Shown here: piece by piece, positions 7,036 through 51,493 of the stretch
Numbering within the stretch: position 1 is the stretch's first letter
Layout of the letters: every line of letters starts with the position of its first letter
NCBI GenBank assembly: GCA_900617105.1
Contig: UYFQ01000055.1
Location: forward strand, 1 to 58,254
From: Hydrurus foetidus
Taxonomy: Eukaryota
DNA: 58,254 bases
Direction: 5' to 3'
Notes under the pieces: model-generated
What the model was told of the DNA's origin: nothing
The model's database searches: none
The model's input: only the letters and a program-made list of their open reading frames with translations
Translations under genes and position numbers: made by a program

Positions 7036-7167
7036 CTCCCCGTAGTGAAGATGTAGTGTAAAATAATGCATGTTTACTTATGAGCTACCTTTATAATATT
7101 AGAATTAACATAGTATATGTGTGATCAAGACAAATACAATATTAAAACATAATTAGTATAGTGCTGT

Positions 7168-12867: not shown

Positions 12868-12879
12868 TGGTAGCGATTG
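12868..12879 (+). promoter_or_regulatory. Primer-binding site TGGTAGCGATTG (probably initiator tRNA-Met)
   Basis: Directly after the LTR CA; TGG complements the tRNA CCA; same 12-mer after the Copia-C and Copia-D LTRs. Confidence 0.85.
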
Positions 12880-12954
12880 TTTATAGTGATTAAACGATTG
12901 CCGTGGATTCCAGGATTCTGAATTTCCTTCCTCAACTTTCAGAACCCTGCAATC

Positions 12955-19518: not shown

Positions 19519-19628
19519 ACAGCACTATACTAATTCTGTTTTAATATTGTATTTGTCTTGATCACACATATACTATGTTAATTCTAATATTATAAAGGTA
19601 GCTCAAAGTAAACATGCATTATTTTACA

Positions 19629-19649
19629 CTACATCTTCACTACGGGGAG
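19629..19649 (+). promoter_or_regulatory. Conserved pre-PPT/PPT CTACATCTTCACTACGGGGAG
   Basis: Immediately 5' of the LTR TG; identical in Copia-C (44749-44769, minus strand). Confidence 0.85.
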
Positions 19650-20262
19650 TGTCAGACCACTTGATTCTATCAAGATATGTCTGTAGTAATATAGTTGCAA
19701 ATATAGTTTCAAATATATACATGTACGTTATGCGACACGTACGTACGTAAGTACACACAGATACATAACATGCACATACATACGTACATACAGTAGTACA
19801 TAGTCACAGGTGTAGTACAACACAATGTTAGTACACGCATACGTACACACATACTACGTCTACACAGTATTACATATATAATATGTACGTATGTACAATA
19901 GCGTAGTACATAGATGTATAGCGTACTACGTAATACTGCCGATGTACGTTCTTATCATACACATGCATACGTACTCTATAATATCGCCATATAGCAGTTA
20001 GTACTCACGCATGTACGTTCATATACATATACACGCATACGTACCCTGTACTATCGCCATGTATCAGTTAGTACGAACCCTCTGACCTCACGCAAATGAA
20101 CGTTCGCCTTTCATGATTCTTCAGTATCGCCAAAACACTTCGTTACTATAAGCATTCATGCAACGTTTCAAGGCTGCTATGAACAACACATCTCGCTGAA
20201 CTTTGTCCGGTGCGTCACTGTCATGAACTGTTCGCTCATGGGCGTGGCTATCTCACTCTAAT
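19650..20262 (+). repeat. Copia-A LTR-like segment, degraded after ~19755
   Basis: Exact LTR start, then many scattered small deletions relative to the other LTR copies. Confidence 0.75.
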
Positions 20263-23125
20263 CGAGGCTGGTGGCTGGTCGATTTCCTCAGCCTCAAAGT
20301 GTAAGAAGTCACCTATATCAAATTGTGAGCGTCACTGCGAATATGAATGAGGACGCCGTTGACTTTCGCTGCGAGGAAGACCTCTGTCCTCAATTTTTTG
20401 CCGACAGATGCGAACTCTGTTTCAAGTCATTCTGTGAAAATTGTATATCTTCCCACAGCTGCCAGGGACAGTCATCAGCTTCTTCATCGGCTACAAGCGT
20501 CCAGGCTCCGACCCCAGCCCGAGAAGAGAGAAGTTCAACAGATTTAGGAGTCAAGAGGAGTCGAACGAATGCTGCTTTTCAGCAAAGCAAGAAAATTTCC
20601 ATAATGAAATTGTTGACAACAACCAAAAAATTTACGTACGACCTCAAAGACCTTAGGATTCATCCAACAAAATTTCCGCTATACAAAGAGGCAAGGGCAT
20701 CGAGTAGATCCCAATCATGGGTCTGGGATCACTACATGAGCATCAACACTAACATCAGCAAATGCGGAGATGAAAGGGTGTGGGGTAGAGACAATAAATC
20801 GTGTAACTTGTGCCATTCAGCTGCGGTCGAAGATCCAACCCTTAAATGGGCTGTATGCTATGGGGAGGCGAGGAGTACAGGACATCTTGCTCGTCACTTG
20901 GATACCTATCATCCAGAAATCGTGGAGAATCACAACAAGGGCGAAGCTGCCATTGCAAAAGCTGGAAATCTTGAAAAGTATCTGTCAACCACCGTCAGCT
21001 ATGAGGAAAAGTTCATGGAGTGGATTGTTGACACGTACCAGCCGCTCAGTACATGCGAAAGCGAATCATTTCGGGATATGATGCGATCCGTCAACAAAAA
21101 CTGCCCAAATCTCGATAGACATTCGATCATGTCAAAATTGAAACAGCGTGAACAGAGCGTCAAGTTATTGATGAAAAACGTGCTCCAGGACGAAGATGTA
21201 AGCATCACTCTTGATCACTGGACCAGCTCAGCGAATGTAAATTATGTGGCACAGACGGCCCACTTTATCGACGGCGACTTTAAATTGACGAAGCTTACGT
21301 TAGCCTGTACACAGCATAAAGGATCATCGACTGGTGCAGATTCTAAGCAGGTAACATCACACTCGTCAGACACAATCATAGTGTATTGAATTCATCTAAG
21401 TGTCTAATTCAATCGTTATTCCAGATGTTCGAAAAAATCTGTGCTGACTACGATGTGCCGCTCGATCGAGTAGTCGCTGTTGTCACTGATTCTGCAAGGG
21501 ACATGAATCTAATGGGTAGACTTATCACCACAGAGCACACCGCACATCACAATTGCCTCGACCACTGTTTGAGTAAGTTCGCTTCCACGAAAGAATTGGA
21601 CTCTTTAGGAACGCTGAGCCGAGTTTGATTTTTTCAATTTTATCTGCACCCCTCACAGACTTGTGCACTAAGATGGCGTTTAGCGACAACGAGAACAGCG
21701 AGAAGACAATGAAAGCTTGCCGGGATCTCGTCGGATACTTTACGGGATCATGCCAGGCCAACGAGGCGCTCTTGAAGCTGCAAAATAATGATCCCGTTGG
21801 AATGGTTCAAGACGTCGTCACAAGATGGTGGAGTACGTTGGCGATGTTGATGAGACTCCTACGTTTGAGACCACAGCTTGCATACATGGTTGCAGAAAAT
21901 ATGTTGAGCAAGGATGTCAACCTTACTGGGCAGCAATGGCGTACTGTGGAACAGATTACAAAAGTCCTCATTCCATTTAAGGAGGTCCAGATCTTGATGG
22001 AAGGCGAGAAGTATGTGACAAGCAGCTTAATACCTGGACTAATTAGCCTTGTGAGAAAGGGACTCCAGGATGCGTTGAGCGACTGCAACAATCTACAATG
22101 CGTGACCGATCTCGCAGCAAAAATGATGAAAAAGTTCGAGGAAGATTTTGGTACTGGCGATATTGACACAGTATTTAGAGAACATCAAAGTTTAGGAGTG
22201 AATAACAGGCTGAAGGGTTTCCCTTTGAAAGTAATGATGTGTGCAGCACTTGATCCACGGACTAAGAATCTCACAGGAATTCCGAAAGGAGGAGACAGAG
22301 ATGATGTATGGGAATCAATACGCGAGATGCTATTTAGGAATTGGCGAAATGAACAGGAGAGGACCAGAAAATCCCCCACAGTTACCGTAAGGTCACTCCC
22401 TCGTGATACCAGTATTCCTGACTTATGGGCCTCTGACGATGAATGTGATGTGCCAGCTGACGATCAAGAGGATCTCAAAATGCATCAGAGAATTGATTAC
22501 GAGATAAATGAGTATAAAAAAGCAGCAAGATTGGAAATGAGAGTGTCGAAGTTTGACGGTTCCTTAGGTGGTTTCACAAATCCCTTGGTTTGGTGGAAGG
22601 ACAACTGTCTTGCGTACCCTCTCTTGAGTCGGCTAGCGAGAAAATTACTCTGTATTCCTGCTACATCGGCACCGTCAGAGAGAGTTTTCTCTGTCGCTGG
22701 TTTGACCATCTCGAATCTGAGATCGAGGCTGCGCCCCGATAATGCAGCGTGTCTGGTCTTCTTGAAAGAAAACTGGAAAGTGTCAAAGACCTTGACTGTA
22801 AAGTAATGTCTACAATGATGAGTGACATGTCGACTGTGTGGATTCACTTATAAATAATGCGCAATAAATACTAAATACTCGAACATTTCATTAACTCATT
22901 ATCAGCACAATTAATTACCAATGAGCGCCATCTTAAATTTGTTGGCAAGCAGCGGTGAAGATGAAGAACGTCGTCGACACAAACTCGAGCAGCGACTTTT
23001 ACTGCTACCGGCTGCGGGCTGATGAATCTCATGACTTTCAGCCGCTGACAGCCCGGGCTACGGGCTGTGTCTTCAAAATGGCACACCGGCTGCGGGCTAC
23101 GAAAGTCGATCAGCCCCCATCCCTA
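20262..23125 (+). mobile_element. hAT DNA transposon
   Basis: Right end …GTCGATCAGCCCCCATCCCTA (TAGGG-type TIR), subterminal ACCGGCTGCGGGCT repeats, degenerate TIR-like sequence at ~20262-20293. Confidence 0.8.
20343..22806 (+). CDS. hAT transposase, 3 exons (introns 21351-21424 and 21573-21658)
   Basis: BED finger SWVWDHY…CNLC…LARHLDTYH; LDHWTS; VTDSA; splicing restores CLDHCLNL; TRWWST; PATSAPSERVFS dimerization motif. Confidence 0.9.
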
Positions 23126-23992
23126 GCAAATATAGTTTCAAATATATACATGTACGTTATGCGACACGTACGTACGTAAGTACACATGCAGATATGATAA
23201 CATGCACACGTACACACGTACTTACACATGTTAGTGCATACTCATTTATACATACGTACACACATGTACTTACGCATGTACGTACATAGTCAATATGTAC
23301 GTACGTACGTACGCACGCATGTAGCATAGCGTACACTTGTATGGTCACGTACACACGTACATACGTACGTGCACATGTTAGTACATATTATTATATGCAT
23401 ACGTACACACACGTACTTACACATGTATGTATATATATAATATGTACGAATGTACGATCGTCAATAGCGTAGTACATAGATGTATAGGCGTACATACGTA
23501 AGTACCACTGTACTTACGCATGTACGTTCTTATACATACACATGCATACGTACTCCTATAATATCGCCATATAGCAGTTAGTACTCACGCATGTACGTTC
23601 ATATACATATACACGCATACGTACCCCTGTACTATCGCCATGTATCAGTTAGTACGAACCCTCTGACCTCACGCAAATGAACGTTCGCCTTTCATGATTC
23701 TTCAGTATCGCCAAAACACTTCGTTACTATAAGCATTCATGCTACGTTCCTCAAGCACATGCTATGAACAACACATCTCGCTGTGAACTTTGTCTCAAGG
23801 TAGTTCTCACTGTCATGAACTGTTCTGATAGCTCTTTTGCGTGGCTATCTGTAAACTCTAATCAGAATTTAATACGTTGTACTTCACAGCTTCGTCTACT
23901 CGATAGCTCACTGAATTGAGACAGTAGCCTGCAGCTGCTTCTCCACTTTCGCTGCGAACGCTAGAAGGTGACATCTTGTATTTAGTCTTACA
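23126..23992 (+). repeat. Copia-A LTR remainder after hAT
   Basis: Resumes at GCAAATATAG (LTR position ~47), ends TCTTACA. Confidence 0.92.
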
Positions 23993-26900
23993 CACCTCTT
24001 TGAGAGGATCGGTAATAAAAAGCGGATATTTACGGAGTGATGGATTTAACCGCGGGTTACCACCAAGCACCTCTGTACACACCCCACCGAGTCTATACCG
24101 TATTTATATGTTTCATGGGGGTGTTTCAGTTCACGAGATTGCCTTTTGGCCCTTGTCGAGCCCCCTCTTACTTTCAAGAGCAGATGGCCACAACGGTCCT
24201 TTACGGTCTTATATACAGCTGTTGCGAGATGTATCTCGATGACTGTATCGTATATGGCCGGGGCGAAGCAGAGTTTCTCAAGAATCTGCGCAGCGTTTTT
24301 GAAAGATTTCGACTTAAAAATCTTAAGCTCAAAGCAAAGAAATGCAGATTCGGTCTCAAACGTATCGAATACGTGGGACGAGTCATAGACAAAGATGGTT
24401 TATCCATGTCTAAAGAAAAGATTGAGACAGTACTCAACTTCCCTCTTCCTAAAGAAGTAACATCCCTTCGTGGATTTCTTGGCTTAGCCAACTATTTTCG
24501 TCAATTTGTACCGTTTCATTCGGACATGGTCAAACCACTTCAAATGATGGTGGACCCAAAGGCACTTAAACGTTCCCCATATATTGGACCCCCGAGGGGA
24601 CTTTAGCATTTAATGAGACTAAAATCGCGGTATCGCGTTGTCCTTTAATGTACTTCATCAATGATGATTCACCCATCAGATTATATACTGATGCATCCGA
24701 CTATGGCATCGGTGGTGTACTCTTCCAAATTGTCGACACCGTGTGGAGACCAATTGCCTTCATCAGCAAATCTCTCGGCAACACAAATTAATTGGTCGAC
24801 AATACAGAAAGAAGCTTATGCTATCTTTTTCTGTTGCCAACAACTCGATTATCTCATTCGAGACCGTAAGTTCACTATTCATACTGACCATATGAATTTG
24901 ACATATGAAACAAAACCCTACCTCAATGGTAACACGGTGGTTCATTGCAATGCAAGAACTTGATTTTACCGTACACTTTGTCAAGGGACAGATAATGAAC
25001 TTGCCGATGCTCTGTCACGGTTATGTCCAAACCTTACCGAAATTGCTCTGCCTAAGACAATCAGGTCCGAGGGTGATACTCCACCATCATCTTCTTCATC
25101 GTCATCTTCTGCAGTTTCGGCTTTAACGGTTATTGAACCGCCGACAGATGAACAGAATGTTTACATTCAAATGTGCCACAATGCAATTGTTGGTCACAAC
25201 GGCGTCGACCGTACCCTCACTCGACTCTTTAGTCTTAACCACGTGTGGAAAATATGAAACAGCACGTACGCTCGTTCATACGAAACTGCCCATGCTGTCA
25301 GAAATTGAGCGCAGTTGATACAAAATCAGCGCTGCTCATTTTTCAACTTCAACACATGCTATTTTCGATACATTAAATATCGATTATATTGGCCCATTCC
25401 CTGATAAAGGGTATATCCTTGTCATAATCGACACCTTCTCCAGATGGACAGAAATGTTCTGGTGTAAGGATGCTACGGCTCAGTCTGCATGTGAATGCTT
25501 ACTGACTCATTTTGGTCGATTCGGATCGCCAAATATGATTAGATCCGATCGAGGATCCCACTTCGCTAATGATCTCATTAAAGAGTTCTTAGACCTTACA
25601 GGGACACCCCATAATCTCACTGCAACTTCCTCACAAGAGAATGCCATTGTAGAAAGGGTCAACAAAGAAGTGAATAGACACTTACGCGGTCTCGTGTTTG
25701 ATACACCATCTCTTGAACACTATGCTAAATGCATACCATTCGTTCAACGTATCATTAACAGTTCAGTTAATCGACGAACAAATGCAAGTCCTGCTTCGAT
25801 TTTATTCGGCAATAAACTTGATTTGAATCGGGGTATTTTAACACCTCATCTATTACCAACGTTGACATCTTCGAATTCAACATACATCACAGATCTCATC
25901 GACATACAGGACAAGGTCCTCGATGCAGCAATCGGTTCTCTTCAGAAATGTGATGACAAACACAAAAAGTCCACACAAGGTGTGACAGTGTTCCCATAGG
26001 GTCATATGTTCTTGTAAGACAGGAACACCCTCCTACTCGATTACACACAAAGTGGAAAGGTCCTTTCCGTGTTGTCTCCCTTGAGGGATCCGAGTATGTT
26101 CTCGCGAACTTAATTACACATAAGCACAATAGTGTACATGTAAGAATCTTAAGATTTTCAATTATGACCCATCGATGGGCATACCTGCTGATACAGCACG
26201 TCGCGATTACATGGAGTATTTCGTTGAGAAAGTTCTTAGTCACACTGGTGATTCAAAGAAACCGACATCCATGTCGTTCCATGTTAAATGGCTCAACTAT
26301 GATAACTCACATAATACATGGGAGCCTTGGAAGAATCTCCGGCTCTGTGATGCACTCCATGTATACTTGCGGAATAATAACATGTCACGTTTTATTCCCA
26401 AGAATCTTGAGGGATCAACCGATGAGGTTTGAGTTCGAACGTATTATCTTTTGAAGATTTTTTAGCCTAATTTTTTTCCCTTTTCTAAGGGATTTTTATG
26501 GGTTTTTTTAGTCAGTAAAAATCTGACATAATTACGTTTTCGACCCTCGTACAACAGTACTTTACTGTTTTTGTACAACCCCACCTTATCTTTCGACATC
26601 GAACCCCTCTTCTCCACAACTTTTCTTTTGTAAATATTTTTATATGTTTACATTTATTATTATTTTTTTCAAATTTTCGATTTTGTAAATTTGTCAATAT
26701 TTTTCTTTTTCATTTTAAGTTGCATATTAAGTTTTACAAAGAAACGGGGGTTTCGATTTAGTTTAGATTTAGCTTAGATTTTTTTTTCGAAAGAAAGGAA
26801 GATAAGTGGGGGTAATATGATAGTACCGGGTCCAGGGTCCCGATCCTACCGGGTACCGACTCTACCGGAACCTACCGGGTACTATTACTGTACACTACAG

Positions 26901-27023
26901 TTAAGCTGTAGTATCGTCGTAGCCTTCTGCAGCGTCCACTTAGAAGTTAACGAGCTTCTAGCCTAGCGCCTTGTAACTAAGCCTACCACTCCTCGACCCC
27001 TTTCTGCATCTCTCCCGACCACA
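23993..27023 (+). mobile_element. pol: Gypsy-2 chromovirus 3' half (RT-RH-IN-chromodomain, frameshifted) with PPT and probable 3' LTR 26816-27023
   Basis: MDLTAGYHQ, YLDD, SDRG, ERVN, YFVEKVLSH…VKW…TWEPW; GATAAGTGGGGGTAA PPT. Confidence 0.88.
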
Positions 27024-28668
27024 GCATACAAACCTTTCCATGTATTGAACATCGATTTCATCGGACCCTTCCCCGATGCCTCACACGTTCTTGTCATCAT
27101 CTGTGCTTTCACACGATGGACAGAACTCTTTGGGTGCTGATAATACGGCCAAATCGGCTACCGATTGCCTTATCCAACACTTTGGCAGATACGGTGCACC
27201 CCAAATGATCAGATCTAATCGGGGTTCACATTTTGCTATTGAATTGATCAAACAATTCCTAGTGTCAACGGATACACCCCACAACCTGACACTAGCATAC
27301 TCTAAACAAGAGAATGCTATAGTTGAACGAGTTAATGAAGAGATTAACCGGTACTTACGTTCGTTCCTGTATGATACAAACAACGTGTACCAGTATAAAA
27401 ACTGCTTACCGTTTATACAGCGCATTTTGAATTCTTCAATTCACAGCAGTACCAATGCCTCCCCAGCAAGTTTATTGTTTGGTAACCAAATCAATCTTGA
27501 TTCAGGCATACTTTCACCATTCCCACAATTACCGGATGTGGAAACTTCCGCATCGAAAGTGATCTGTGAGATGTATAACATCCAGGACACCCTGATTGCC
27601 CAAGCACAAACTGCTTTGCGCACAATGGGCGCGGCTCATATTGCCACAAGTCCACAGGATATAACGGTTTTTCCCGTAGGTTCATATGTGTTGGCTAGAT
27701 ACACCACACCCGCCCACACGTTTACACACGTTGTGGCGGGGACCGTTTCAAGTGGTATCGATCCACAACTCTGATTATACGTTGTTAGATATAACTACGA
27801 AGAAACTTAAACATCTTTATATTAGTAATCTTAAACAATTTGTTTTCAATCCGAAACATACGGATCCTGCTGATGTAGCACGCCGCGATTATATGGAATA
27901 CTTTATTGAATCCATTCTTCAGCACCAGGGCAATTCCAGACGCAAAACCCAAATGCAGTTACTAGTCAAATGGACTGACTTTGATGACTCACACAATACG
28001 TGGGAGTCGTGGAAGAATCTTCGTCTTACAGACGCTCTTCACACATATTTACGCCTTCACGGCATGTCGAAAATAATTCCGACAGAAAAGTAAGTTCCCC
28101 AGGAACGACCTACACATTATCTTTTGAAGATTCCTCCTCATTTTTACAACTTTAAGTTGCTTTTCAGGAGGTTTAGTCAGTAAAAATCTGACACAAATGT
28201 GTAGGGGAACACTTAGATACAACACATCTAGGCACTCTCGTTTCTCACTTTCCTCATCTCTCACATGTACAAATATCTGTATTTATCGTACGTATTTATT
28301 TCTGTATTTTTTTATCTTTTTTTATTATTGTCTTTTTCTTTATTTTTCTCTCACACGCTTGAGTCGTATTTGTTTTGTCACACATTGTAGCTAGAGACTC
28401 ACCAATAGAGAGAGAGGGAGAGGGAGAGAGAAATGAGAAAACGAGAGATAAGTAGGGGTAGTGTGGCTCCCTCAGGGTCTGCTACCCCATTCAGCCGATT
28501 AAATGCTGTTTCCACCGTAGTACCTTCGTGTTCACAGCCACGACTATCAGTCACTAGCTAGTTTGTGCTGCTTTGCAGAAGTTACTAGCGTACCTTCTGC
28601 TTTCCCCCTAACTAACAAGCTTCTTTTAGCCTTTAGACTTCCCTTCTCTTTCGCCCTCCAAGGTCACA
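27024..28668 (+). mobile_element. pol: Gypsy-3 chromovirus integrase-chromodomain fragment with PPT and 3' LTR 28462-28668
   Basis: IDFIGP, FGRYGAP, ERVN, YFIESILQH…VKW…TWE; GATAAGTAGGGGTAG then TGTG…CACA (207 bp). Confidence 0.88.
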
Positions 28669-31600
28669 GGTGCGTGAAAGAGCGTGGGTAGAGAGGGTGA
28701 GAGGGCTGGTGGTAATAGATCCATGCCTGCCTTGGTAAGGAACGTTTTGATGTGGGCGCCGTAGTCGAGTGTAATAGAATGGTCAGAGTGACTGGTCACG
28801 GTAATACCGCAGATAGAGGTACAGTGGTCGTTGAAGGTTATTGGGCCGTAACGCTTTTTGAGGAGTGTCTTGTATTCGGTTAGAAGTGAGGGTGACGTTG
28901 AGAGGTAGAAGCCGTCGTCTACGTGTAGGTTGATTGTGAGTGAGTTGAGCGGGTTGATGGCGCAGACCTTGCGGTAAGTGTGGTGGTCGGAGTTGGTCGG
29001 GTGGAATCCAGCAGCGATGTGAAGTGCAGTGAGCTCTGTATCGAAAACGTGATTGGATTGTTTGAGGCCGTAACAGGCACCGATGATTCCGGCTGTTTTG
29101 CCAGCGAGAGTGCGATCTGGGAGGTCTTTGGGTAGGATGGTTAGGAGTTGATAACCGCCAGTATGCGAGCGAGGGAGGGAGCTCTGGAGGAAGGCGGCGG
29201 TCATGTCGTATGACCCGATGATTAGTTGAGGGAGGATGTTCCGGTGGGCGGCGTCGGCTAGGGTGACGGCGACAATGAATGAACGGTTTGTGACGTCGGA
29301 TGTGCCTGCAAAAGTGTTGGTGTAGGGGTCCGAGGGCTGGTGGGAGCCATCGATGGCGAGGCGGGCAGTGACGAAGCGGGATTCTTTTTGTTTGATAAAC
29401 ATGGAGCTGCGGAGGAAGGCGTGTCGAGCCTCTAAGGCATCTTGTGAGTGGAGGAGGCGAAGACTAGCGTATTTGGTGAATTGTTTGTGTGTTTCTTTGT
29501 CTATTGCTGCGGCAACGTTGGGTGCGGGTAAAGTACGAGATGCGCGGGCGATGGACATTTCTGTACGCTGAGTGGCTGTTGGGGTAGGGATAAGGGAGAT
29601 GGGGAGGTTGTTGAGGGAAGAGGGGTGCTAGGCATTGAAGAGTCTGTTGCGCAGAGCAGCTGTGCGAGTGTTTGCGAGTTTGGTGATTTGGGATTGGGGG
29701 TGCGCGATCAGACTAGAACCGTACCAGTGACCGGGGGGTAGGGGGTTAGCAGCAATACGAACGGATTTTCTGGGAGCTTGCTGTTGTGATGGCGATGGCG
29801 GAGGAGGTGGGGAGTTTGGGGGTGTAGTGGGAGTGGGGGTAGGCTGGGCGTAGATGGGTCTGAAGTGAAGGTGGGTGGCTTGGTGTGTGTTGGTGGTGGC
29901 GGTGGTGGAGGAGTGGGTGTGGCCGATGGCAGGAGGTATGTTGGCGGAGGGGCAATGGGACGGGGAGGCTGGGGGGTTGAAGGTTGGTTGGAGTGGGGAA
30001 GGTATGGATGGAATCAAGGAAGGTGACGGGATAAAGGCTGATCGGTGGTGATGCGGTGGGAGTTTGGGAGTTGAGGTGGATGGTTTGTGGTGGACCTGAT
30101 GGGTGGGAGGATAAGGGGTAGGGAGGGGATGGGTGCATTTGTTGGGCGGGGGATAGTGGGCTGTGATGGTGCGGGGGACAGCGGGTCAGGGGGCAAAGGA
30201 ACATGGATCGTGTGGTCTTTGGCGGTCCAATCGAACGGGACGTAGGTGGGGGGCAAAACCAGATATGCGCGACGTGGTACAATGCGGCCGTTAGCCAGCA
30301 CAAACTGGGCGTGGCCAGTGATTGGGTTAGGGCCTAGGCAGACTCCTAGTTCGGTTTTGGGTTCGGTTGCTGCTGTAGTATTGTGCTGTCGGGCGTTTGC
30401 TTGGCGTTTGTCAATGTGCTGAACGACGAGGGCAGTAGTCCCGAAGAGTAGAGGAATGGTACGAATCTTTGTGCTACGAACGAGTTCATTGGGTGTATGG
30501 GGGTGACTCTTGGTTGAAATGAGGGAGTTGCGGGTAGCGGCTGCGGCTTGGTGGCGGTAAAGGTAAGAACGGGTAGCGAGATTGTACGGGAGGGGTGAGA
30601 GCATAGCGTTGGAGATACCCCGGATAGTTTGGATGTAGCGCTCAACGAGGTGGGCGTGGTTGCCGGGAAGGGAGTTAGAGAGATGGATGTCGAGGGAGCC
30701 GAGAGGGGTAGAGAGGGAGTTGTTAATATTTTCCGAGTCGCTGTGCATAGATGTGACTTTGTGGCCGTGGGCGTTGTAGATGGTGGTGATGACTGAATGG
30801 ATAGATTTGAAAATGTGGGTGGTGGCTTTTGAGAAAGCTCCGACTACGGAGATGTAGTCTGAGTGTTCGTCGACGATGATGACCTCGTGGCTGAATCCAC
30901 CAGGTGACGGCTGGGGCAGTTGTTGAGGATCGAACGACAAGGTCTGTCCGATGGTGGTTGTGGGTGCATAGGTTTGGGTTAGAGGGAGATCGGTATTTTC
31001 CTGCGGCGCAATGGACGCAGTGGCCGCGGAGAATTCGGTTGAGTAGGATGTCGGATGGGACGAGAGGAGTAGGAATTTTACCAGAGGAAATACAGAGGGA
31101 GAGGATGGCGTCCGAGGGATGTCCTAACGCACGGTGGAGAGCCTCGGCTTGGTTAGCTCGATGTCGCTGTTCCCCGGTTATGTGGGGGAGAACGGGAGGA
31201 AGTGAAGTGAGTAGATAAGATGTAGGAGTATTTGGAGGTTGATAGTGGGTGGGGTTGTTAAGGGCGGCGACGCGTAATGCAGTGAAATTGATTGGGAGAA
31301 GATTATTAGAGTTGATAGCGACATTGTTAAGAAGGAATCCTGTTGTTGATGAATTGATAATGCTGTGGGTAAGGGGTCGGGTGGGATCAGGGCAGTAGTG
31401 TGCCCCACATTTTTGCATGTAACATAAACTCAGAAGGGTGGTGGGGATAGTTGGGGCAAGGAATGCAGCATTCATATTTTTAGTGTTTGGTAGGTAGGTG
31501 AGGTATCCTGAGTGAGTTACTGGGCAAGATCCGCTCACGCCGCCTAACGAGAAAGGGGATAAGAGTGGTTGGATGTTATATAGGTCAGATGCGTGGGGTG

Positions 31601-31739
31601 TGACGTTGAGGCTACATCCGGTGTCCCAGAATCCTGAGTGTTTGTTTGCTGGTAGGTTAGCTAAGTACGAGAGTTGGTCAGTAGTAGGTATAGGGTCGGG
31701 TTCTGAAGGGATGGGTAGAGGGGCCGAGTCCCCTATGAC
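28669..31739 (-). pseudogene. pol: Copia-B pol (PR-IN-RT, frameshifted)
   Basis: Motifs spread over ORFs 30723-31538, 30014-30940 and 28626-29558. Confidence 0.85.
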
Positions 31740-32753
31740 CTAGGTTTCAGTTTTAAGAGTCTCCTCAAAGGCGGTGTCTGTGAGTTGCATGAGGAGGTTG
31801 ATGGAGGTGGGAGATCCAGGGGTAGCGGCTTCAGCTTGAGCGAGTAGGGATTTCATGTTGTTATAGACGGAGGGAGTGGAAGTGGGATGACGGTTAGCTG
31901 GATTAAGGCCACAGGAAAGGATAGTATGTGAACTAGTCTTGGGTTTCTTTGGGTAACGCTTATGACAGTGGATACAAAATACTGATGGTGCAGGTGTGTT
32001 TTTGTTGGGGGGAGGCTGAACGGCGAGGTATGCCGAGGCTTGGGTTGATGGGGTATCAGAGAGGTGCAAGAGGGCGCTGGATTTTTCCCAGTTTAGGAGG
32101 GTTGTGGCTAATGCAGCTGGATCCGTGAATCTAGCGTCAGGGTTGGCTGCTAAAAGGGTGTTGATTGGGAGGTTGTAGAGTCCGTTGCTAGGAATACCAG
32201 TGAGTAGAGCGAAGCAGTGAAGTTGAGCTACGGAAACCATGTCGGAGTTTGTGAGACTACCGAAATCTACTTTGAATTGTTCAAAGTCGGAAGCCATGGT
32301 TTGAATATATTCGCTCAGTGTTTTGTCGCCTTGGTGCGAGTTGAGAAGCTGTCTTGTTCGCAGGAGTTTGGTGGATGCGTTGCCTGTAGAGTGTATGGTG
32401 GTTAGTATTGTCCAGCAACTGAACGATTTGAGGCCAAGGTTAGCGGCTCTGAAGGTTGGGTAAGTTGGATGAGTTTCTAAAGCAAGATGTGATTCAGAGG
32501 ACATGTTGGAGAAGAGATAGGTGAGTAAATCATTATCATCTTTCTCGTCAATCTTTATTTGTGCGAGCGTACGCGTTATCGCGTCGCGCAACATGTTGTA
32601 TCCGAAAGGGGACAATTCGAGTTCGAGTGCTGGGGTGCCGGCTGTAACTTGGGCGGCCGTAGGTAGAAGTCTGTGAAAGACTGGAGCCCAAGTGATGGTG
32701 ACATCATTTTGTGTAGGGAGTGCCCATGATGACAGAGTTACCAATGCGGCCAT
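31740..32753 (-). CDS. gag: Copia-B gag
   Basis: ORF after the LTR; CIHC…H…C knuckle-like motif; ends in TAG in frame with protease. Confidence 0.75.
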   Translation of the reverse strand: MAALVTLSSWALPTQNDVTITWAPVFHRLLPTAAQVTAGTPALELELSPFGYNMLRDAITRTLAQIKIDEKDDNDLLTYLFSNMSSESHLALETHPTYPTFRAANLGLKSFSCWTILTTIHSTGNASTKLLRTRQLLNSHQGDKTLSEYIQTMASDFEQFKVDFGSLTNSDMVSVAQLHCFALLTGIPSNGLYNLPINTLLAANPDARFTDPAALATTLLNWEKSSALLHLSDTPSTQASAYLAVQPPPNKNTPAPSVFCIHCHKRYPKKPKTSSHTILSCGLNPANRHPTSTPSVYNNMKSLLAQAEAATPGSPTSINLLMQLTDTAFEETLKTET

Positions 32754-33095
32754 ACGATGTTTGAAGCAGCCGAAAGGTCTGCTTTTTGAAGGGTGTCCAA
32801 TTGGAAGAAGTCGAATCCAAGACGATTGTTGGCGCGCTACTTGCGGAGAAAGTAGCTAACATGGCTATAAGTAAATGTTGGGAGAAGGAGGAAATCCAGA
32901 GAACAACGGAGTATTTACTTATAAGCCTGGGTGCGCTAGAATGTGGCTAGCTATCGAGTATGGTTGAGTAGCTAGTCATTTGCTGTGCTGTGTGACACTG
33001 GAGTAACTAGTAACGCTATTATTGACCCGAGTGAATTGATGTTTTAACGGCTTGTAGTGACGTGCGTGAATATTTAAGTACATGATAATGTAACA

Positions 33096-36000
33096 ACCGG
33101 GGTCATCATCTGATCATCACAGGAGATGCCAAGAAGATCTAACCCGATATAATCACCCATACGTGATGGGTCATAAACGCAGTCTGTGCGTCAATCCAGA
33201 CTGATACCAAGCGTCCAGCACGCAGGAAGATCATCAAAACATCAGATGACAATGACTTCAAGGAGACTCCTGGAACGTCAAGCTCAATGCATGCTCCACC
33301 AATGCTTCAAGACCCTCCTCTTGTTAATGATGATATTGTTCCAGCACTTAAGACTGCTGGTGTACCTCGTATGATTGCACCAGTCCAATATCCAGTCAAG
33401 GAGGAAGAGCAGCAGCCATTGCAACTGGAGCATCCTCCCATGTCACTCGACTCTCAGCAATCTACACAAGATATTTTGCATCCTCCAATGGCAGATCTGG
33501 CAACCCCTGAGCCATATCGAATGCGCACTCCACCAGCCAAATCACCATCAAGAGATTCAGTGTCTGCCACACGTCGTGCAAAAGCAAGAGCACTGGCTGA
33601 GAAAAAGAGTCTCAACTTACTTACAGTTACAGACAAAGACAGCAAATTCATGTCATTCAAGAAGACAAGTCACAAGACAGTCATTGATAGTGGTGCATCT
33701 ACATCTGGTACTGGATTGCGCAGCAGTCTCCGTGACCTTAGACCTACATCATGCAGTGTCTCAGCGGCTTTCGGGGAGACTGCCCAGCCTACTGAGATGG
33801 GACTACTCCCACCATTCATGCTCAAGACTATTGTCATCGATCAAATGAATGATACTACACTACTCTCAGTGTCTCAAGCGTGTGCAAAGGGATTTGTGGG
33901 CATCTTCACCTCTAAGGACTGCAAGTTCTTTAATGCGATAGATGTCATCCCACACCTTCAGACAATTTCAAAGACAGCTCACCCAGTTATGAGTGGCAAG
34001 GTAGAGGAAGGCCTCTACTTGCTGGACTCCAACTGAGTGCAACCGGCTCAACTCTTGGTCACGAGTGTAAAGGAGCTTTCGATTTACGACCACGTGCATC
34101 GCGTACTAGGACACCCTGGCGAAGAGGGTATGGCCTGGCACCGACAGCACACCATTGGAGCACACTACTCCAACTTGGATGCATCTACACCAAGGCCAAT
34201 ATGCGCAGCATGCGTACAGGGCACGATGCGACAGACCTCTACGGACCATCTTCGTATACACCGTTTGCCATCTCCTTGCTACGGCAGTCGATTCTCACTT
34301 GACGCGTATACACATACACACCGGTCACAGGCCGGTTATAAGTACTGCGATATCATCACGGACTTATCTACAAGACGAAGTTATCCATGCTTCAGGAAAG
34401 ACCGGGGAGCTGCAGAACTTGTCAAAAGCTTCTCCACCCTCTTTCAATCACATCCTGAGTGGAAGCCCTCGCTTCCAGGCGTAGACCGATTCATCAGAGC
34501 CGATGCAGAGAAATCCTATCGGTCAGCTGAATTCCTTCAATGCCTTCACAACTTCGGATATCGACTTGAGCCAACACCACCTCGCGACAAACATGCAAAT
34601 GGAATCGCAGAACGTGCAGTAGGCGTCTTATCGATGAAGTGCAACATCACCATGCAACCTTTAGGGATGACAGTACCACAGAAGTTCTGGGATCTTGCCT
34701 TTGAGTATACATGCATCACCCATGCATTCAATTACCATTCAGCAATCAAGACATCACCGTATCATCTCATCACTGGAAAGCATGTAATCCTCAAGAACCT
34801 CAAGGCCTTTTGGAGCTTATGTTGGGTTCACATCGCGCTTGAAGATAGGAAAGGAAAAATCGGTTTTCCTCGTGCATACAAAGCCAGATTCGTTGGTTAC
34901 GATTTATCGAGAACGCTCGAGCCTTGTTTTAAGGTCATCGAAATACTACCAACCGGAATCTTCGGCAAAATTAGGACAAGTAAGGACGTCATTTTCGACA
35001 AAGACAATAATTATAATTACACGGACGAGTACCCATCCGATCTTGACTTTTCTAATTTACACCAGAATATCAATAACGATATCTCTGCAGTCCTACCAGC
35101 TAACAAGGTAGTTGAAAAAGATTCTGAACAACAACTAGCAACTCCAGCTATTCCAATACACCCTGTACCTGTAATACCTTGCATTATTCAGAATCGAACT
35201 CCTGAAAATCCTATTCCAGCGAAAATACATCCAAATGTGATTAACAATAACAAAATTGTTAATAAATCTGGATCGACTAATATCAAATCAACAAAACAGA
35301 ATATACCGTTTGATCCAACACCAATTAGAGATACAAATAACAAATCCGACATCGATGATAATGACATTGGTATTAATACACCGATTCAAAACATTGAAAA
35401 TGACGATGCTGTCTACTGGTACTCTACTCATGTTAGAAATCACGAACATTTTCTCTCATTGATTGAAGCAAGTCATCACGAAAAACTCTTCATCAATTTC
35501 GATCAACTCAATGTGCCAAAATCATTCTGGAAAGCTATGGCTATACCTGAATGGAAAAACGCAATAGATACTGAATTAAAGAAATTCGAGAAGAACTCAT
35601 GTTTACATGTAGTACCATACATTGACCAACACCTGGTACCAATGATGTGGCTTTTTAGTATAAAAACCGACGGTACGAAAAAGGCCCGTTTAGTGGGACG
35701 GGGAGATATGATGATACCACTCGTGGACTTCGACCCCGACGCCGTATACTGCGGAAATGTATCATCGTGTTCCATCAAGATGGCACTAAGCATTGCAGCA
35801 GCATATGGACTAGTAATGAAAGGAGGTGACCTCATTGGTGCTTACCTCATTACAAGAGCAAATGTTAACTTCCCGGTGCACATAAAGACACCGCAGGGAT
35901 ACACTTGCCCACCCGGTTTCTGCTTTCAGGCTGTCGGCAATCTTTATGGATTCCCACCTGCAGGGCAAAACTTTTCCATAGAGTTTGATATTTGTATCTT

Positions 36001-38156
36001 CGAGTGTGGTTACAAAAACACACCCTGGGACCTCAAGTTCTTCTTTAAATGGACCACAGATGGTAGACCCATGCTTATCATCGCTCACAGTGATGACTTC
36101 AGATGGTTTGGTCCCTCGGACAAACTTGATGAATGGGATCTGATCATCGCCACCTTCAATGCACACAAGTATGAAGTCACTGATGCAACTGACAAGGAGT
36201 TCGTTGGTATTCGTATTCAGCGTGATGAAGATGGCACATATTATATGGATCAACATCGCATGATTGATTCAATAATAAAAGAGGCTAATATATCTGGTGC
36301 GAAGGACATGCACTTACCATACCCGACTGGGGACCAAGAACCTGCATTGTCAAAACTAGACAACGCTTCTACCCCTGAGGAACGTATGCAGTGTATGAAG
36401 TACCCGTACAGGAGGGTCGTGGGTCAACTAATGTACGGTATGGTACATACCATGGTCGGCATTCTGTATGCACTCAATGTACTATCCCGTTATGGTAACA
36501 ACCCAGGTCCCAGACATATCAAATTCCTCAAACACTTATTGCAGTACTGCAAGTACGCACGAAGTGATCGACTAGTGTTCCATGGACACGATGGACCCAG
36601 AGACATCGAGACTATGACAACGCTACTCAACTCCGGTTTCAATGCGATGCAGATTTGGGTGGTAATCCCGACAATAGCCACTCCCAGACTGCATACCTTG
36701 GATACCTCGGCCGTAACCTTATCTGCTGGTGTTCCACCGACCAAGGCAGCATATCAACATCAACGGCAGAGTCGGAAATCAAGGCTGTCAACCACACACT
36801 CAAAGCAGAGGTCATAGCCAACAGAGGCATCCTAAACATGATGGGATGGGTCCAAGGTCCAACCTCTATTGAAGAAGACAACCAAGCCTGTATATACCAT
36901 TCTAAGGCAGCACACATGACACGCAACCTACGGCACCTCGACCTCACCGAAAACTGGGTCAAAGAGAAGGTTGCTGATGGTACTTGCGTAGTTGTTAAAG
37001 TTAAATCGTGCGATAATAATTCAGATATTGGTACAAAAAGAGTTTCTCTACCAATATTTAATAAACTTCTAAATCAAATTATAGATCAGTCTCAGAGACG
37101 AAATCTTTAAATAGCACTATACTAATTATGTTTTAATATTGTATTTGTCTTGATCACACATATACTATGTTAATTCTAATATTATAAAGGTAGCTCATAA
37201 GTAAACATGCATTATTTTACACTACATCTTCACTACGGGGAGTGTCAGACCACTTGATTCTATCAAGATATGTCTGTAGTAATATAGTTGCAAATATAGT
37301 TTCAAATATATACATGTACGTTATGCGACACGTACGCACGTAAGTACACATGCAGATATGATAACATGCACACGTACACACGTACTTACACATGTTAGTG
37401 CATACTCATTTATGCATACATACACACATGTACTTACACTTGTACGTACATAGTCAATATGTACGTACGTACGTACGCACGCATATAGCATAGCGTACAC
37501 TTGTATGGTCACGCACACACGTATATACGTACGTGCACATGTTAGTACAAATTATTATATGCATACGTACACACACGTACTTACACATGTATGTACATAT
37601 ATAATATGTACGTATGTACGATCGCCAATAGCGTAGTACATAGATGTATAGGCGTACATACGTAAGTACCACTGTACTTACGCATGTACGTTCTTATACA
37701 TACACATGCATACGTACTCCTATAATATCGCCATATAGCAGTTAGTACTCACGCATGTACGTTCATATACATATACACGCATACGTACCCCTGTACTATC
37801 GCCATGTATCAGTTAGTACGAACCCTCTGACCTCACGCAAATGAACGTTCGCCTTTCATGATTCTTCAGTATCGCCAAAAACACTTCGTTACTATAAGCA
37901 TTCATGCAGCGTTCCTCAAGCACATGCTATGAACAACACATCTCGCTGTGAACTTTGTCTCAAGGTAGTTTCACTGTCATGAACTGTTCTGATAGCTCTT
38001 TTGCGTGGCTATCTGTAAACTCTAATCAGAATTTAATACGTTGTACTTCACAGCTTCGTCTACTCGATAGCTCACTGAATTGAGACAGTAGCCTGCAGCT
38101 GCTTCTCCACCTTCGCTGCGAACGCTAGAAGGTGACATCTTGTATTTAGTCTTACA
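33096..38156 (+). mobile_element. Copia-A copy 3 (5'-truncated; 1-bp deletion near 36626 in RNase H; 3' LTR 37243-38156)
   Basis: Near-identical to copy 2 from 15501 onward; TGA at 34034-34036 retained. Confidence 0.95.
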
Positions 38157-39276
38157 TTAGGGTAAACATTTTTACCGATGGATGTGCGGAGCAATACAAA
38201 AGTCGTCGTAATTCTTATTTCGTGGCAGCACTAGCAGAAGATACAGACATGACAGTTACACATAACTTTGCTCCTACTGCATCTTTCAAAACAATGGTAG
38301 ATGGACAGGGAAACGTCACTAAAGCTTTTTACAGAAAGTTAGAAAGGAGTGAGGAAGAAGGGACACGCTGCCCAACAACATATCAGCTGTTCTTGTTATT
38401 TGCGACGAGGTACCCTCTCACTCCTGCAGATGTTGAAGATTCGAAAAAAAATCCAATGACAATAACTGGCCGCTTCCATCGCTACCTTATCGACGTTAGG
38501 TAGCTACACCTGAAATAATACGCAGAGCAGTAGTAGAAAAAGATGTCATTATCACTGATTATATTGGAGAAAGATGGGATGCACCAGCATTAAAAGGAAT
38601 CAAGTCGCTATTCAGCTTAGTTGCACAAGTAGAAGACGGAAAAATCAATTTTCAGAGCAGGGAACATACGTGCTTTTGTAAGCACTGCATTGAAGGGAAC
38701 TTTGCAGGCTGCCTCCACGCGGACATATCTGGAGCATTAAAGACAGAATTGTTCATAAAGTTGCCATTCAAGGAGGTTTCTTTGAAGAAGAGCTGTGTAA
38801 ATGAGGACATACTGAGGATTAATTTCTTTAAGGGTGCAATGCCATTAAACGGTGCAACGCCAATTATGATAGCAATTAGGAGAGAAAGACTCGATGTAAA
38901 TGACGAGCCGTTTGTACTAGGCATCATGACTAAAAATATAAAAGAGACAACGAAAGATACTGAGTGTGAGTACACAATATCAGGTACAAAAAGCAAAATT
39001 GTCATAAAAAAAGGGAAATGGTGCGTAACAATAAAAATGTTGTTCTGTAAAAACGTTATTGAAAATACATATTTCATTCCAAATAAAGAAAAAAAATTGA
39101 AAATTCCAATTTCTGATGTATATAATCCCGGTGAAGTAGCGGACTTATCACGAGAAAACTACTTAATATGTACAGTTCAAAGTGAAGTACAGGACAACAA
39201 TCGAGTCAACAATGTGTATATTATAGATAGCGATAGCATCGAAACACTAAGAAATTCTATGACAAATGAAATATGA
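38157..39276 (+). pseudogene. C-terminal part of a DDD/E transposase, Sola-like
   Basis: IFTDGCAEQYKS…NFAPTASFKTMVDGQG, followed by REHTCFCKHC…C; stops and frameshift present. Confidence 0.55.
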
Positions 39277-44240: not shown

Positions 44241-44955
44241 TGTGAGTCAGACTGTGGAGTGAAGCGAGCTACCTGTTGGCTGCGGAAGCGCAAAGGAAAG
44301 ACTGGCTGATGGAAGTGGTCTCGGAAGACGTGTTTACTTACAACGATCAAGTAGTAAAACAACTGGCGATGATATCAGAGAAGACAACCATCAAAGAAGC
44401 AGAGCAAAGCATCCATTGTGCATGAAATGGTGATCGCCGAAGTGGAAACATATTCAGCGAATATTCAAGTTGGCGATTGAGCAATGGGCGGAACCCTCGC
44501 TGCTCATGAAATCGGATGCTTGGTGGAAACCGGATACCTGGTGGAAATCCGGATGCTTGGTGGTGAAAAACCGGATGCTTGGTGATGGCCCCGAAGGGGG
44601 ATATCGCTAGAAGAACGATGAGCGTATGTACACAACAGTGTATGGCGGTGTTTTGGGTGAGGAAGCGCTACACTACTTGTGACATGTGAATGCTAATCTA
44701 CAGATGAAACTATGCTAACAGATCATGCATGAATATGCTGGACTGACACTCCCCGTAGTGAAGATGTAGCTGAACGTGTTATTGAGAGTATCGAAATGAA
44801 TGATATGTGTATATATACTCCCCGTACTGAGGATGTACTCCCCGTACGAGAGATTTGGCAAAAAGTGTAAAAAGTTAGTTATAATATATGCGTGCACTCA
44901 TATAAGATAGTAAAATTAGTACGTATGTTAGAAATATGGATATTAAGTATTTATG

Positions 44956-50800: not shown

Positions 50801-51493
50801 TCGCGAGAGGTAAAGGAATCGGCACATAGATAGTGGGTAGACTCGCTGAAAGCGTTCAACATGACGTTGTATAAACGTTTCTTGTCGTGGGCCCATCGTG
50901 TAACATCGTCGGCAGGGTACATAATTGAAGGTGCCGTCAAGATTCTCCGACGTTGTAGGCTCCGAGTATCCTGATGGGTTGTGCCTCGTTGGGATTGGCT
51001 CGCGACGCGTGCCCATCGCCATTGGGTAGAGTCCAACGACGTGGAGCATGTTGTCGAGAGCTTTGAAGCGCTTGTTAGATCCCACAGTCGTTGTGGTGAT
51101 CTGGTTTTGCTTGATGCTATCCATTTCTGAAGAGGTCGTCAGAACGAGATCGAGTTTTAGCCGTTTGAGCTCCAAAACGGATTCCAAAGCGGCATTATAT
51201 GATAGCCCATGTTGCTGAAACTTCTGCCGAAGTTTGGCGCGGTGGCGTGGCTTCCTCTGCATGGGAGCCTCGTCGAGGTCGGTTTGGTGTCGAAGGATTT
51301 TGACGATTTGCCGTCGAGCTGGTGACCAAATTTTGAGTTTGGGCTCTTATGGCCTCGGCGACACGTTGATCGAACTCTGCGAGGGTCATGGAGAGCATGC
51401 GCGGCAGCTGGGCGCGGCTGGGAGTCTCTAGCCCAGTTGGGTCATGGTATTCCTCGTTGTTTTGGTCTGTGTTGTCGGACGATCGTAGCATCA
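47826..51493 (-). pseudogene. gag: Copia-C gag-protease (frameshifted)
   Basis: CRKFLAGTCLLGNKCKYYH, IFDSGAS, GLYVETPY-TGA. Confidence 0.85.

What the first reader, a model, noticed from the sequence alone, without database searches (positions are those of the whole stretch)
32863..32927. Copia-B has a self-complementary, non-tRNA PBS (Tf1-like self-priming geometry)
Seen (minus strand): the LTR ends …CCCAACA and is followed by TTTACTTATAGCC, with no TGG. About 37 nt upstream, inside the LTR, is GGCTTATAAGTAAAT (32927-32913). It pairs perfectly over 10-11 bp plus 3 bp after a bulge, and its 3' end lands at the LTR boundary. Known: S. pombe Tf1 and related Gypsy elements prime with the first 11 nt of their own RNA. 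Inference: a Ty1/Copia-order element may self-prime; I know no established Copia example.
Basis: partly seen in the sequence, partly recalled or inferred. Interest (0 to 1): 0.78.

Follow-up and report, generated by a model that had tools for sequence, protein, structure and literature searches.

The report
Copia retrotransposon that probably primes itself
A broken Copia-type jumping gene from an unidentified eukaryote has, exactly where such elements normally bind a host tRNA, ten to eleven letters that pair with its own terminal repeat, so it likely starts copying itself with its own RNA, a trick already predicted for some plant Copia elements.

Summary
On the minus strand a 220-nt LTR (33095..32876, TGTT...AACA) is followed by TTTACTTATAGCC and then the gag ATG. 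GGCTTATAAGTAAAT lies 37 nt upstream inside the LTR. The two pair over 10 bp (11 with the last LTR base), plus 3-4 bp beyond a one-base bulge.

The LTR start is proven by an insertion junction. The LTR end is supported by an outside contig that stops exactly at 32876 and has a different flank. A complement this long at this place arose in 42 of 20000 shuffles. The hairpin folds at -18.7 kcal/mol (z -5.05). Two other Copia families in the window carry a normal TGGTAGCGATTG site and show no such complement.

The element is a truncated, frameshifted, very divergent Copia (PR-IN-RT order) with no 3' LTR. Self-priming of the Tf1 type is the best reading (about 0.55), but it is not shown. I found no RNA data for the transcription start, no host tRNA set and no DNA of diverged relatives. 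The copies seen in public runs are too alike to test covariation.

Verdict: a new member of a known kind, of moderate interest.

The parts
32876..33095 (-). 5' LTR of Copia-B, 220 nt, TGTTAC...CCCAACA
   Evidence: The start is fixed by the insertion junction into the host Copia repeat. The end is supported by X7 contigs that break at 32876 with a 30-nt overlap and a different outer flank. No second copy is in the window.
32913..32927 (-). LTR motif GGCTTATAAGTAAAT, the predicted self-primer (predicted 5' end of the RNA). It also reads as a TATA-like TATAAG and an AGTAAA poly(A)-like hexamer.
   Evidence: Sequence, pairing. It is unchanged in every variant contig laid.
32877..32912 (-). 36-nt segment between the two arms (predicted rest of R plus U5). 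It holds a 5-nt bulge (32912-32908) and a 4-bp GUUG/CAAC helix stacked under the primer duplex.
   Evidence: Folds. Six of the eight variant positions seen in 32863-32927 fall here. Five lie in unpaired positions and one, 32888, lies in a minor 3-bp helix.
32863..32876 (-). Primer-binding position: A|TTTACTTATAGCC, complementary to the LTR motif, with no TGG
31743..32862 (-). gag, with its ATG at 32862 directly after the primer site. The window copy is frameshifted near 32716.
   Evidence: ORFs. All contigs that cover the place, in runs X1, X3 and X7, carry 20 more letters behind 32716 (X4 has no depth there). By my count of the frames these join the two gag frames.
30017..31739 (-). Protease (DTG) and integrase (H-x4-H...C-x2-C zinc finger, D,D,E core), with frameshifts
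   Evidence: Motifs read by eye in the translations. Homologues of 41-74% identity exist. Pfam does not recognise these parts.
28629..29627 (-). Reverse transcriptase of the Copia type. The element is truncated after it, so RNase H and the 3' LTR are missing.
   Evidence: RVT_2 E 4.6e-07, 30.1 bits against a cut-off of 31.6. A 98% identical outside contig, L003, runs on into RNase H.
33096..33100 (+). Insertion point in the host Copia repeat (ACCGG, a candidate target-site duplication)
   Evidence: The other junction is not in the window.

Best explanation
Copia-B is a dead, truncated member of a very divergent Ty1/Copia family whose primer-binding position pairs with a motif in its own LTR instead of a tRNA end, and the family likely primes minus-strand DNA synthesis with the 5' end of its own RNA, as Tf1 does. 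Shown: the LTR, the missing TGG, the 10-11 bp complement that begins at the LTR boundary, the stable hairpin, and the PR-IN-RT order. Inferred: transcription would start at about 32927-32923. The first 11-15 nt would fold back onto 32876-32863. The element's RNase H would cut at the end of the duplex, after 32914 or 32913, next to the 5-nt bulge. The freed 3' OH would then be extended through 32877-32912 to give a strong-stop DNA of about 36 nt, which transfers to the 3' LTR. Cutting after 32914 fits the LTR ending in A32876. The AGTAAA inside the motif could serve as the poly(A) signal in the 3' LTR, which would give a very short R.
For: 1. Position: the complement starts at offset 0 from an LTR end that was set independently. 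2. Rarity: 42 of 20000 shuffles reach 10 nt. 3. Fold: -18.7 kcal/mol against a shuffle mean of -7.74, z -5.05, 0 of 200 shuffles as good. The same hairpin is in the MFE of a 201-nt context. 4. Controls in the same window: Copia-A (LTR 507 nt) and the host Copia (LTR 912 nt) carry TGGTAGCGATTG after the LTR, and their best complements are only 7 and 5 nt. 5. The site meets the criterion used to predict self-priming in plant elements (PMC6317226). 6. The family was recently mobile: near-identical LTRs occur with other flanks, and all contigs covering the place in runs X1, X3 and X7 (X4 has no depth there) carry 20 more letters in gag that, by my reading, close its frame. 7. No variant is listed in the motif in any of the 7 runs laid (X1, X3, X4, X7, X9, X10, X15). 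The four variant contigs listed across it keep it unchanged.
Against: No transcription start is known, and no listed run is on record as RNA. TATAAG in the motif could be a TATA box. No covariation could be tested, because the copies in the runs are too alike. The lack of change in the 15-nt motif against 11 variable positions in 92 nt is not significant (my estimate, about 0.14). One primer-site variant (32869, 174 of 786 depth in X3) has no listed partner change at 32920, although such a change would have fallen under the 10% listing threshold. The one-base bulge is present in all copies. If the whole 15 nt were the primer and were copied back into the site, as recalled for Tf1, the bulge should vanish, so the primer would be only 10-11 nt. 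R plus U5 after removal of the primer would be only 36 nt. Host tRNAs could not be searched.
Confidence: 0.55

Rival explanations
1. The primer is a host RNA fragment, for instance an internal piece of a tRNA as in Drosophila copia, Ty5, Osser or Bianca. In this reading the LTR motif is a separate structural or regulatory element that happens to match.
For: Half-tRNA primers occur only in Ty1/copia lineages (1/2 tRNA-Met, 1/2 tRNA-Ile; PMC6317226). The site has TTAT-AGCC, which resembles the complement of the recalled initiator-tRNA anticodon loop with one base missing. Host tRNAs could not be checked.
Against: The match to the recalled tRNA loop motif is only 4+4 bp with a bulge and leaves the first five bases after the LTR unpaired, against 10-11 contiguous bp to the element's own LTR. 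A 10-nt run with a single G or C is unlike nuclear tRNA sequence (general knowledge). This reading also has to treat the own-LTR complement as chance (0.0021).
Confidence: 0.2
2. The inverted repeat is an RNA or DNA hairpin of the leader with another role, such as packaging, dimerisation, control of gag translation, or promoter and poly(A) signals. Transcription would start elsewhere and priming would be by something unknown.
For: The motif holds TATAAG and AGTAAA. The 3' arm ends one base before the gag ATG, so the hairpin would control access to the start codon. Fungal GalEa Copia elements have a conserved hairpin in place of a primer site, of unknown role (PMC5445492).
Against: A TATA box at 32922 would put the start near 32890 and leave about 15 nt for R plus U5. 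Whatever the hairpin does, the sequence right after the LTR must still bind the primer, and the only known match is the LTR motif. The GalEa pattern (a palindrome with the last LTR base, partner 12-41 bp downstream) is not met here.
Confidence: 0.15
3. The complement is chance in a decayed copy; the true primer site was lost by mutation.
Against: Contigs of 7 runs from at least 6 studies (X1, X3, X4, X7, X9, X10, X15) show the same site. The only changes are one at 32869 (X3) and one depth-2 change at 32864 (X10). Chance is about 0.002 per element. The hairpin z-score is -5.05.
Confidence: 0.07

Closest known systems
Plant TAR lineage of Ty1/copia (includes Houba and Osr-1), predicted self-priming (Neumann et al. 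2019, PMC6317226; passages read)
   Same: Copia gene order, no tRNA-type primer site, and at least 10 bp of complement between the 5' LTR and the stretch that starts 0-5 bp after it. In both cases self-priming is a prediction only.
   Different: Copia-B comes from an unidentified eukaryote found in freshwater, sediment, biofilm and air metagenomes. Its proteins are so divergent that Pfam misses its integrase, and tblastn finds no likeness to the other Copias in the window. Kinship with TAR was not tested because no reference sequences were at hand.
Tf1/Tf2 of Schizosaccharomyces pombe and the Tf1/sushi group (Ty3/gypsy chromoviruses), self-priming shown by experiment (recalled; papers cited in the reference list of PMC6317226)
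   Same: The primer site abuts the LTR and pairs with about 11 nt of the element's own upstream sequence. A second short helix is stacked beside the duplex, like the U5-IR stem as I recall it.
   Different: The superfamily differs (PR-IN-RT order, RVT_2-type RT, no chromodomain), so this would be a convergent mechanism. The distance from primer to site is only 37 nt. Cleavage and the transcription start are untested.
Fungal GalEa Copia elements with a Conserved Hairpin Site instead of a primer site (Donnart et al. 2017, PMC5445492; abstract, section 10 and discussion passages read)
   Same: Copia elements with no tRNA site, LTRs of about 235 bp, and a hairpin at the primer position.
   Different: In GalEa the 9-bp sequence after the LTR is palindromic with the last LTR base, and its partner lies 12-41 bp downstream. 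The authors found no complement in the LTR. Here the partner lies inside the LTR and the site is not palindromic.
Hemivirus-type Copia elements primed by half a tRNA (copia, Ty5, Osser, Bryco; Bianca with 1/2 tRNA-Ile)
   Same: Copia elements whose primer site lacks TGG.
   Different: Their sites match the anticodon arm of a tRNA. Here only a gapped 8-base likeness to the recalled initiator loop motif was seen.
Notes of this scan on self-priming Copia elements of diatoms (unchecked AI notes)
   Same: The same geometry is reported there, with covariation among dozens of relatives.
   Different: No sequence likeness to Copia-B was found in the scan index. The host of Copia-B is not identified. 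Nothing in those notes was tested here.

Membership tests
Ty1/Copia (Pseudoviridae-like LTR retrotransposons) | Gene order gag-PR-IN-RT-RH | tested here: met
   gag, then DTG, then the HHCC finger and D,D,E core, then RT, along the minus strand (motifs read by eye). RNase H follows RT in the 98% identical outside contig L003.
Ty1/Copia (Pseudoviridae-like LTR retrotransposons) | RT of the RVT_2 (PF07727) type | tested here: met
   The window copy scores E 4.6e-07 and 30.1 bits, just under the 31.6 cut-off. Three of the four longer homologues (P0006, P0008, P0009) carry PF07727.
Ty1/Copia (Pseudoviridae-like LTR retrotransposons) | LTRs ending TG...CA and a 5-bp target duplication | tested here: inconclusive
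   TGTT...AACA is present. The 3' junction is missing, so the duplication cannot be read.
Self-primed LTR retrotransposons (mechanism of Tf1) | No complement to a tRNA 3' end at the primer position | tested here: met
   There is no TGG within 5 nt of the LTR end. The tRNA end used by the two other Copias in the window (TGGTAGCGATTG) is absent here.
Self-primed LTR retrotransposons (mechanism of Tf1) | At least 10 bp of complement between the 5' LTR and the stretch starting 0-5 bp after it (criterion of PMC6317226) | tested here: met
   10 bp from offset 0, or 11 with the last LTR base.
Self-primed LTR retrotransposons (mechanism of Tf1) | The complement is the very 5' end of the transcript | not testable with these tools
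   No listed run is on record as RNA.
Self-primed LTR retrotransposons (mechanism of Tf1) | Pairing kept by compensatory change among relatives | tested here: inconclusive
   No variant is listed in the motif in the contigs of 7 runs. One primer-site change is compatible with G:U (32864, depth 2). One (32869, X3) has an unknown partner. No DNA of diverged relatives was obtainable.
Self-primed LTR retrotransposons (mechanism of Tf1) | RNase H cut that frees the primer | not testable with these tools
   This needs cDNA or RNA ends from particles.
Tf1/sushi clade (Ty3/gypsy chromoviruses) | Order PR-RT-RH-IN with a chromodomain | tested here: not met
   IN lies before RT. Copia-B works like this clade but is not a member of it.
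Plant TAR lineage of Ty1/copia | Placement in the TAR clade of an RT-RH-IN tree | not tested
Half-tRNA-primed Copia (hemivirus type) | Primer site complementary to the anticodon arm of a host tRNA | not testable with these tools
   No host genome is held and the window has no tRNA. By eye, only a 4+4 bp gapped likeness to the recalled initiator loop motif.
Fungal GalEa with Conserved Hairpin Site | A 9-bp palindrome with the last LTR base, and its complement 12-41 bp downstream | tested here: not met
   ATTTACTTAT is not palindromic, and the partner lies upstream in the LTR.

The most novel reading that the evidence does not exclude
A deep, so far undescribed Copia lineage of an unsequenced environmental eukaryote gave up tRNA priming and primes with the first 11 or so bases of its own RNA, independently of Tf1/sushi and of plant TAR. 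The leader is extremely compact: primer, poly(A) signal, R, U5, primer site and gag start all lie within 66 nt. Self-priming would then be a recurrent solution across Copia.
Probability: 0.45. Interest if true: 0.5.

Novelty: new member of a known kind. Interest (0 to 1): 0.36.

Why it matters
Self-priming frees a retrotransposon from a host tRNA and ties the primer and its site into one co-evolving pair. It has been shown by experiment only for Tf1-type Gypsy elements. If a very divergent non-plant Copia lineage uses it too, the mechanism arose several times. Annotation tools that demand a tRNA site would then miss or misjudge such elements. The 52-nt R-U5 would also be a small, tractable model for how short a retroelement leader can be. 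As it stands this is one family, with a prediction only.

Tried and rejected
- No whole genome is held for the window, and ARAGORN finds no tRNA in it.
- No second LTR copy is in the window, at any sensitivity tried.
- No RNA holder is listed among the 22 runs.
- Relatives with DNA, using Gag as query: 0 in viral contigs and 0 in metagenome contigs.
- Relatives with DNA, using the integrase alignment A2:
  - 0 in metagenome contigs and 0 in viral contigs.
  - 1 locus in genome contigs, which holds integrase only.
- An exact 20-nt loop pattern gave 0 matches in viral contigs.
- The genome behind L001 holds three pieces (IN, RT-RH, and a 64% identical RT) but no LTR.
- 0 of 401 genomes of that family match gag plus LTR.
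- Rfam on 32500-33300 gave nothing under E 0.99. The single hit lies in the flanking repeat and is far below its cut-off.
- tblastn of the Copia-B proteins against the window found only themselves, so Copia-B is not a close relative of the two tRNA-primed Copias beside it.
- The scan index holds no look-alike of its gag or integrase.
- Parsing the primer site as an anticodon arm (Met-i, Ile-UAU, Ile-IAU, Leu-IAG, by eye from recalled loop motifs) gave no tRNA-like stem.
- The GalEa hairpin pattern does not fit.
- Covariation from run contigs has too little variation.
- Host identity: the closest proteins of the flanking Copia are all unnamed environmental sequences.
- Literature:
  - 'self-priming' + 'diatom' + 'retrotransposon' gives 2 papers, neither about such elements.
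  - Maumus 2009 (PMC2806351) does not discuss primer sites ('trna' 0, 'priming' 0).
  - Supplements of PMC6317226 (Additional files 1 and 5, which list the primer-site types) were not opened.

Full report
**What is there**

Read on the minus strand, the stretch runs ...CCCAGGCTTATAAGTAAATACTCCGTTGTTCTCTGGATTTCCTCCTTCTCCCAACA | TTTACTTATAGCC ATG.... The motif GGCTTATAAGTAAAT occupies 32927-32913. The last LTR base is A32876. TTTACTTATAGCC occupies 32875-32863, and an ATG follows at 32862. All coordinates in the finding are correct.

blastn-short finds an 11-nt perfect self-complement, 32923-32913 with 32876-32866. RNA folding adds three features (coordinates):
- 4 bp beyond one bulged U (32927-32924 with 32863-32866);
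- a 5-nt bulge;
- a 4-bp GUUG/CAAC helix (32907-32904 with 32877-32880) stacked under the main duplex.

The 73-nt hairpin has -18.7 kcal/mol, against a mean of -7.74 for 200 dinucleotide shuffles (z -5.05, none as good). It is also in the MFE of a 201-nt context.

**The element**

The minus strand from 32862 down to about 28629 encodes, in this order (motifs read by eye):
- a gag-like ORF;
- a protease motif (DTG);
- an integrase zinc finger (H-x4-H ... C-x2-C) and a D,D,E core;
- a reverse transcriptase.

The RT matches Pfam RVT_2 weakly (E 4.6e-07, 30.1 bits, cut-off 31.6). Integrase before RT is the Ty1/Copia order. Three of the four longer homologues (41-64% identity, 815-1270 aa) carry PF07727. 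An outside contig 98% identical in RT runs on into an RNase H region.

The window copy is dead:
- It has several frameshifts and ends right after RT, so RNase H and the 3' LTR are missing.
- No second copy of the LTR exists in the window.
- It lacks 20 letters behind 32716 that every contig covering the place carries, in runs X1, X3 and X7 (X4 has no depth there). By my count of the frames, those letters join the short ORF that starts at the ATG at 32862 to the long gag frame. That ATG is therefore most likely the real gag start, and less damaged copies exist elsewhere.

The lineage is very divergent. Pfam misses its gag, protease and integrase. tblastn finds no likeness to the other Copia elements of the window.

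**LTR boundaries**

The 5' end is proven. Right of 33095 lies another Copia, the "host" element, with RVT_2 ORFs at 7171-10242, 16444-19515 and 34037-36814. Its two other copies in the window run on uninterrupted across the point where Copia-B begins. Copia-B therefore inserted there and its LTR starts TGTTAC at 33095.

The 3' end cannot be read in the window. Public runs help:
- 20 of the 22 listed runs, from 10 studies, hold part of the element. They are sediment, freshwater, biofilm and air metagenomes plus a coded organism A.
- In run X7 an 816-nt contig covers 33095..32876, ends exactly at 32876 and has a different sequence beyond 33095. This is another insertion.
- A 1146-nt contig coming up from gag ends at 32905.
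- The 30-nt overlap is what a k=31 assembly graph gives when paths part right after 32876.
- In X1 the LTR contigs run on through the site into gag without a break. That fits if the 3' LTR flanks are each too rare to be kept, but it adds no support.

**Is it chance?**

I kept the downstream sequence fixed and shuffled the LTR. A perfect complement of 10 nt or more that starts 0-5 nt after the LTR end appeared in 42 of 20000 shuffles, and one of 11 nt or more in 11 of 20000. Across 3.9 kb of internal sequence only one other stretch of 9 nt or more has a complement in the LTR.

The same test on the two other Copia families of the window gives best complements of 7 nt (Copia-A, LTR 507 nt) and 5 nt (host Copia, LTR 912 nt). 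Both have the conventional site TGGTAGCGATTG right after ...CA. The host organism therefore offers a normal tRNA primer, neighbouring Copias use it, and Copia-B does not.

**Variation**

Contigs were laid at 80-85% likeness from 7 runs of at least 6 studies.
- No change is listed in the motif 32913-32927. The four variant contigs listed across it keep it unchanged. They do differ at 32884, 32885, 32888, 32898, 32909, 32910, 32930, 32932, 32946, 32966 and 32967.
- The primer site shows two changes. One is at 32864 (one contig of depth 2 in X10); on the element strand it is C to T, which would keep a G:U pair. The other is at 32869 (174 of 786 depth in X3); on the element strand it is T to G, which breaks a pair unless 32920 changes too.
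- A partner change at 32920 would have been under the 10% listing threshold, and X3 was not. This point stays open.
- Six of the eight variable positions within 32863-32927 lie outside the three main helices. One of those six, 32888, lies in a minor 3-bp helix.
- None of these counts is significant (my rough estimates are 0.07-0.14). The family is simply too young for a covariation test.

**Mechanism**

By definition, the base after the LTR is where minus-strand synthesis is primed. The primer must therefore end in ...UAUAAGUAAA-3'. The element's own RNA carries exactly that, 37 nt upstream.

The most economical model is the Tf1 scheme. The Tf1 details are recalled; the Tf1 papers appear in the reference list seen. 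The steps, all inferred, are:
1. The RNA starts at about 32927-32923.
2. Its first 11-15 nt fold back on the site.
3. RNase H cuts at the duplex end next to the bulge.
4. The 3' OH is extended through 32877-32912.

A cut after 32914 fits an LTR that ends with A32876.

Three points weaken the model:
- TATAAG in the motif may be a TATA box. That would, however, leave only about 15 nt for R plus U5.
- The bulged base persists in all copies. This suggests that only the 10-11 contiguous bases act as primer.
- R would be short.

AGTAAA within the motif could be the poly(A) signal used in the 3' LTR. That this hexamer is a signal variant is recalled.

**Rivals**

- A host RNA fragment as primer (0.2). 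This cannot be excluded without the host's tRNAs. By eye, the site shows only a gapped 4+4 bp likeness to the recalled initiator-tRNA anticodon loop.
- A leader hairpin with another role (0.15).
- Chance (0.07).

**Comparison with what is known**

- Neumann et al. 2019 (PMC6317226; passages read) predicted self-priming for 12% of plant elements. These include the TAR lineage of Ty1/copia. The paper notes earlier proposals for Houba and Osr-1. Their criterion is 10 bp or more of 5' LTR complement starting 0-5 bp after the LTR, and Copia-B meets it. The idea is therefore in print for Copia, as a prediction.
- Donnart et al. 2017 (PMC5445492; abstract, section 10 and discussion passages) describe fungal GalEa Copias without a primer site but with a downstream hairpin. 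They state that they found no LTR complement. Copia-B differs from that pattern.
- Maumus et al. 2009 on diatom Copia (PMC2806351) says nothing on primer sites.
- A search for 'self-priming' with 'diatom' and 'retrotransposon' gave two papers, neither on the subject.
- Earlier notes of this scan report the same geometry, with covariation, in Copia elements ascribed to diatoms. These notes are unchecked, share no detectable sequence with Copia-B and were not tested here. They lower the surprise but give no support.

**Host**

The host is not identified. The window is a nest of retroelements and a hAT transposase. The nearest proteins are unnamed environmental sequences. Other notes on the window's own record describe bacterial pieces, so the source looks like a mixed assembly.

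**Verdict**

- The claim of no Copia precedent is outdated.
- This is a new member of a known, predicted kind, in a very divergent lineage.
- Interest is 0.36. Confidence in self-priming is 0.55.

Noticed in passing
window 6123-20263 and 33096-38157: The element that Copia-B inserted into is itself a large Copia. Its LTR is about 912 nt, its site is TGGTAGCGATTG, and its ORFs are 1173 and 1024 aa. It is present three times in the window, two of them head to head (7171-12117 minus, 12922-19515 plus). In runs X3 and X4 its summed contig depth is 10^5 or more, against about 10^3 for Copia-B.
   Followed up: partly
window 12000-12530 (also 37290-37815, 23126-23750, 6650-6920): The long LTR of the host Copia holds tandem units of 147 nt and 71 nt, rich in GTAC/ACGT repeats (repeat finder families D1, D2 and D13).
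   Followed up: no
window 28000-32000 and 46000-52000: There is a very strong strand bias (GC skew up to +0.48 on the plus strand). The coding strands of Copia-B and Copia-A are C-rich and G-poor, and give proline-rich translations in all frames.
   Followed up: no
window 32716: The window copy lacks 20 letters that every contig covering the place carries, in runs X1, X3 and X7 (X4 has no depth there). It also differs from all contigs covering each place at 32690, 32813, 32849, 32850 and 32910. Either this is a private decayed copy or a different strain.
   Followed up: partly
window 44241-52091: Copia-A is a full-length element on the minus strand with 507-nt LTRs at 98-100% identity and the site TGGTAGCGATTGC. 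The 5 bases flanking it are not an obvious duplication (GAATT against GATGT).
   Followed up: no
window 21577-22803: An ORF carries a hAT dimerisation domain (E 5.9e-21), so a DNA transposon sits among the retroelements. Gypsy/chromovirus fragments with chromodomains lie at 40-5081 (minus) and 24019-28093 (plus).
   Followed up: no
This looks like eukaryotic contamination of the bin.
   Followed up: partly
window 32836-32856: A second predicted 7-bp hairpin lies just inside gag, right after the primer site. The contigs of all four runs laid differ at 32849/32850, which would weaken one of its pairs.
   Followed up: no
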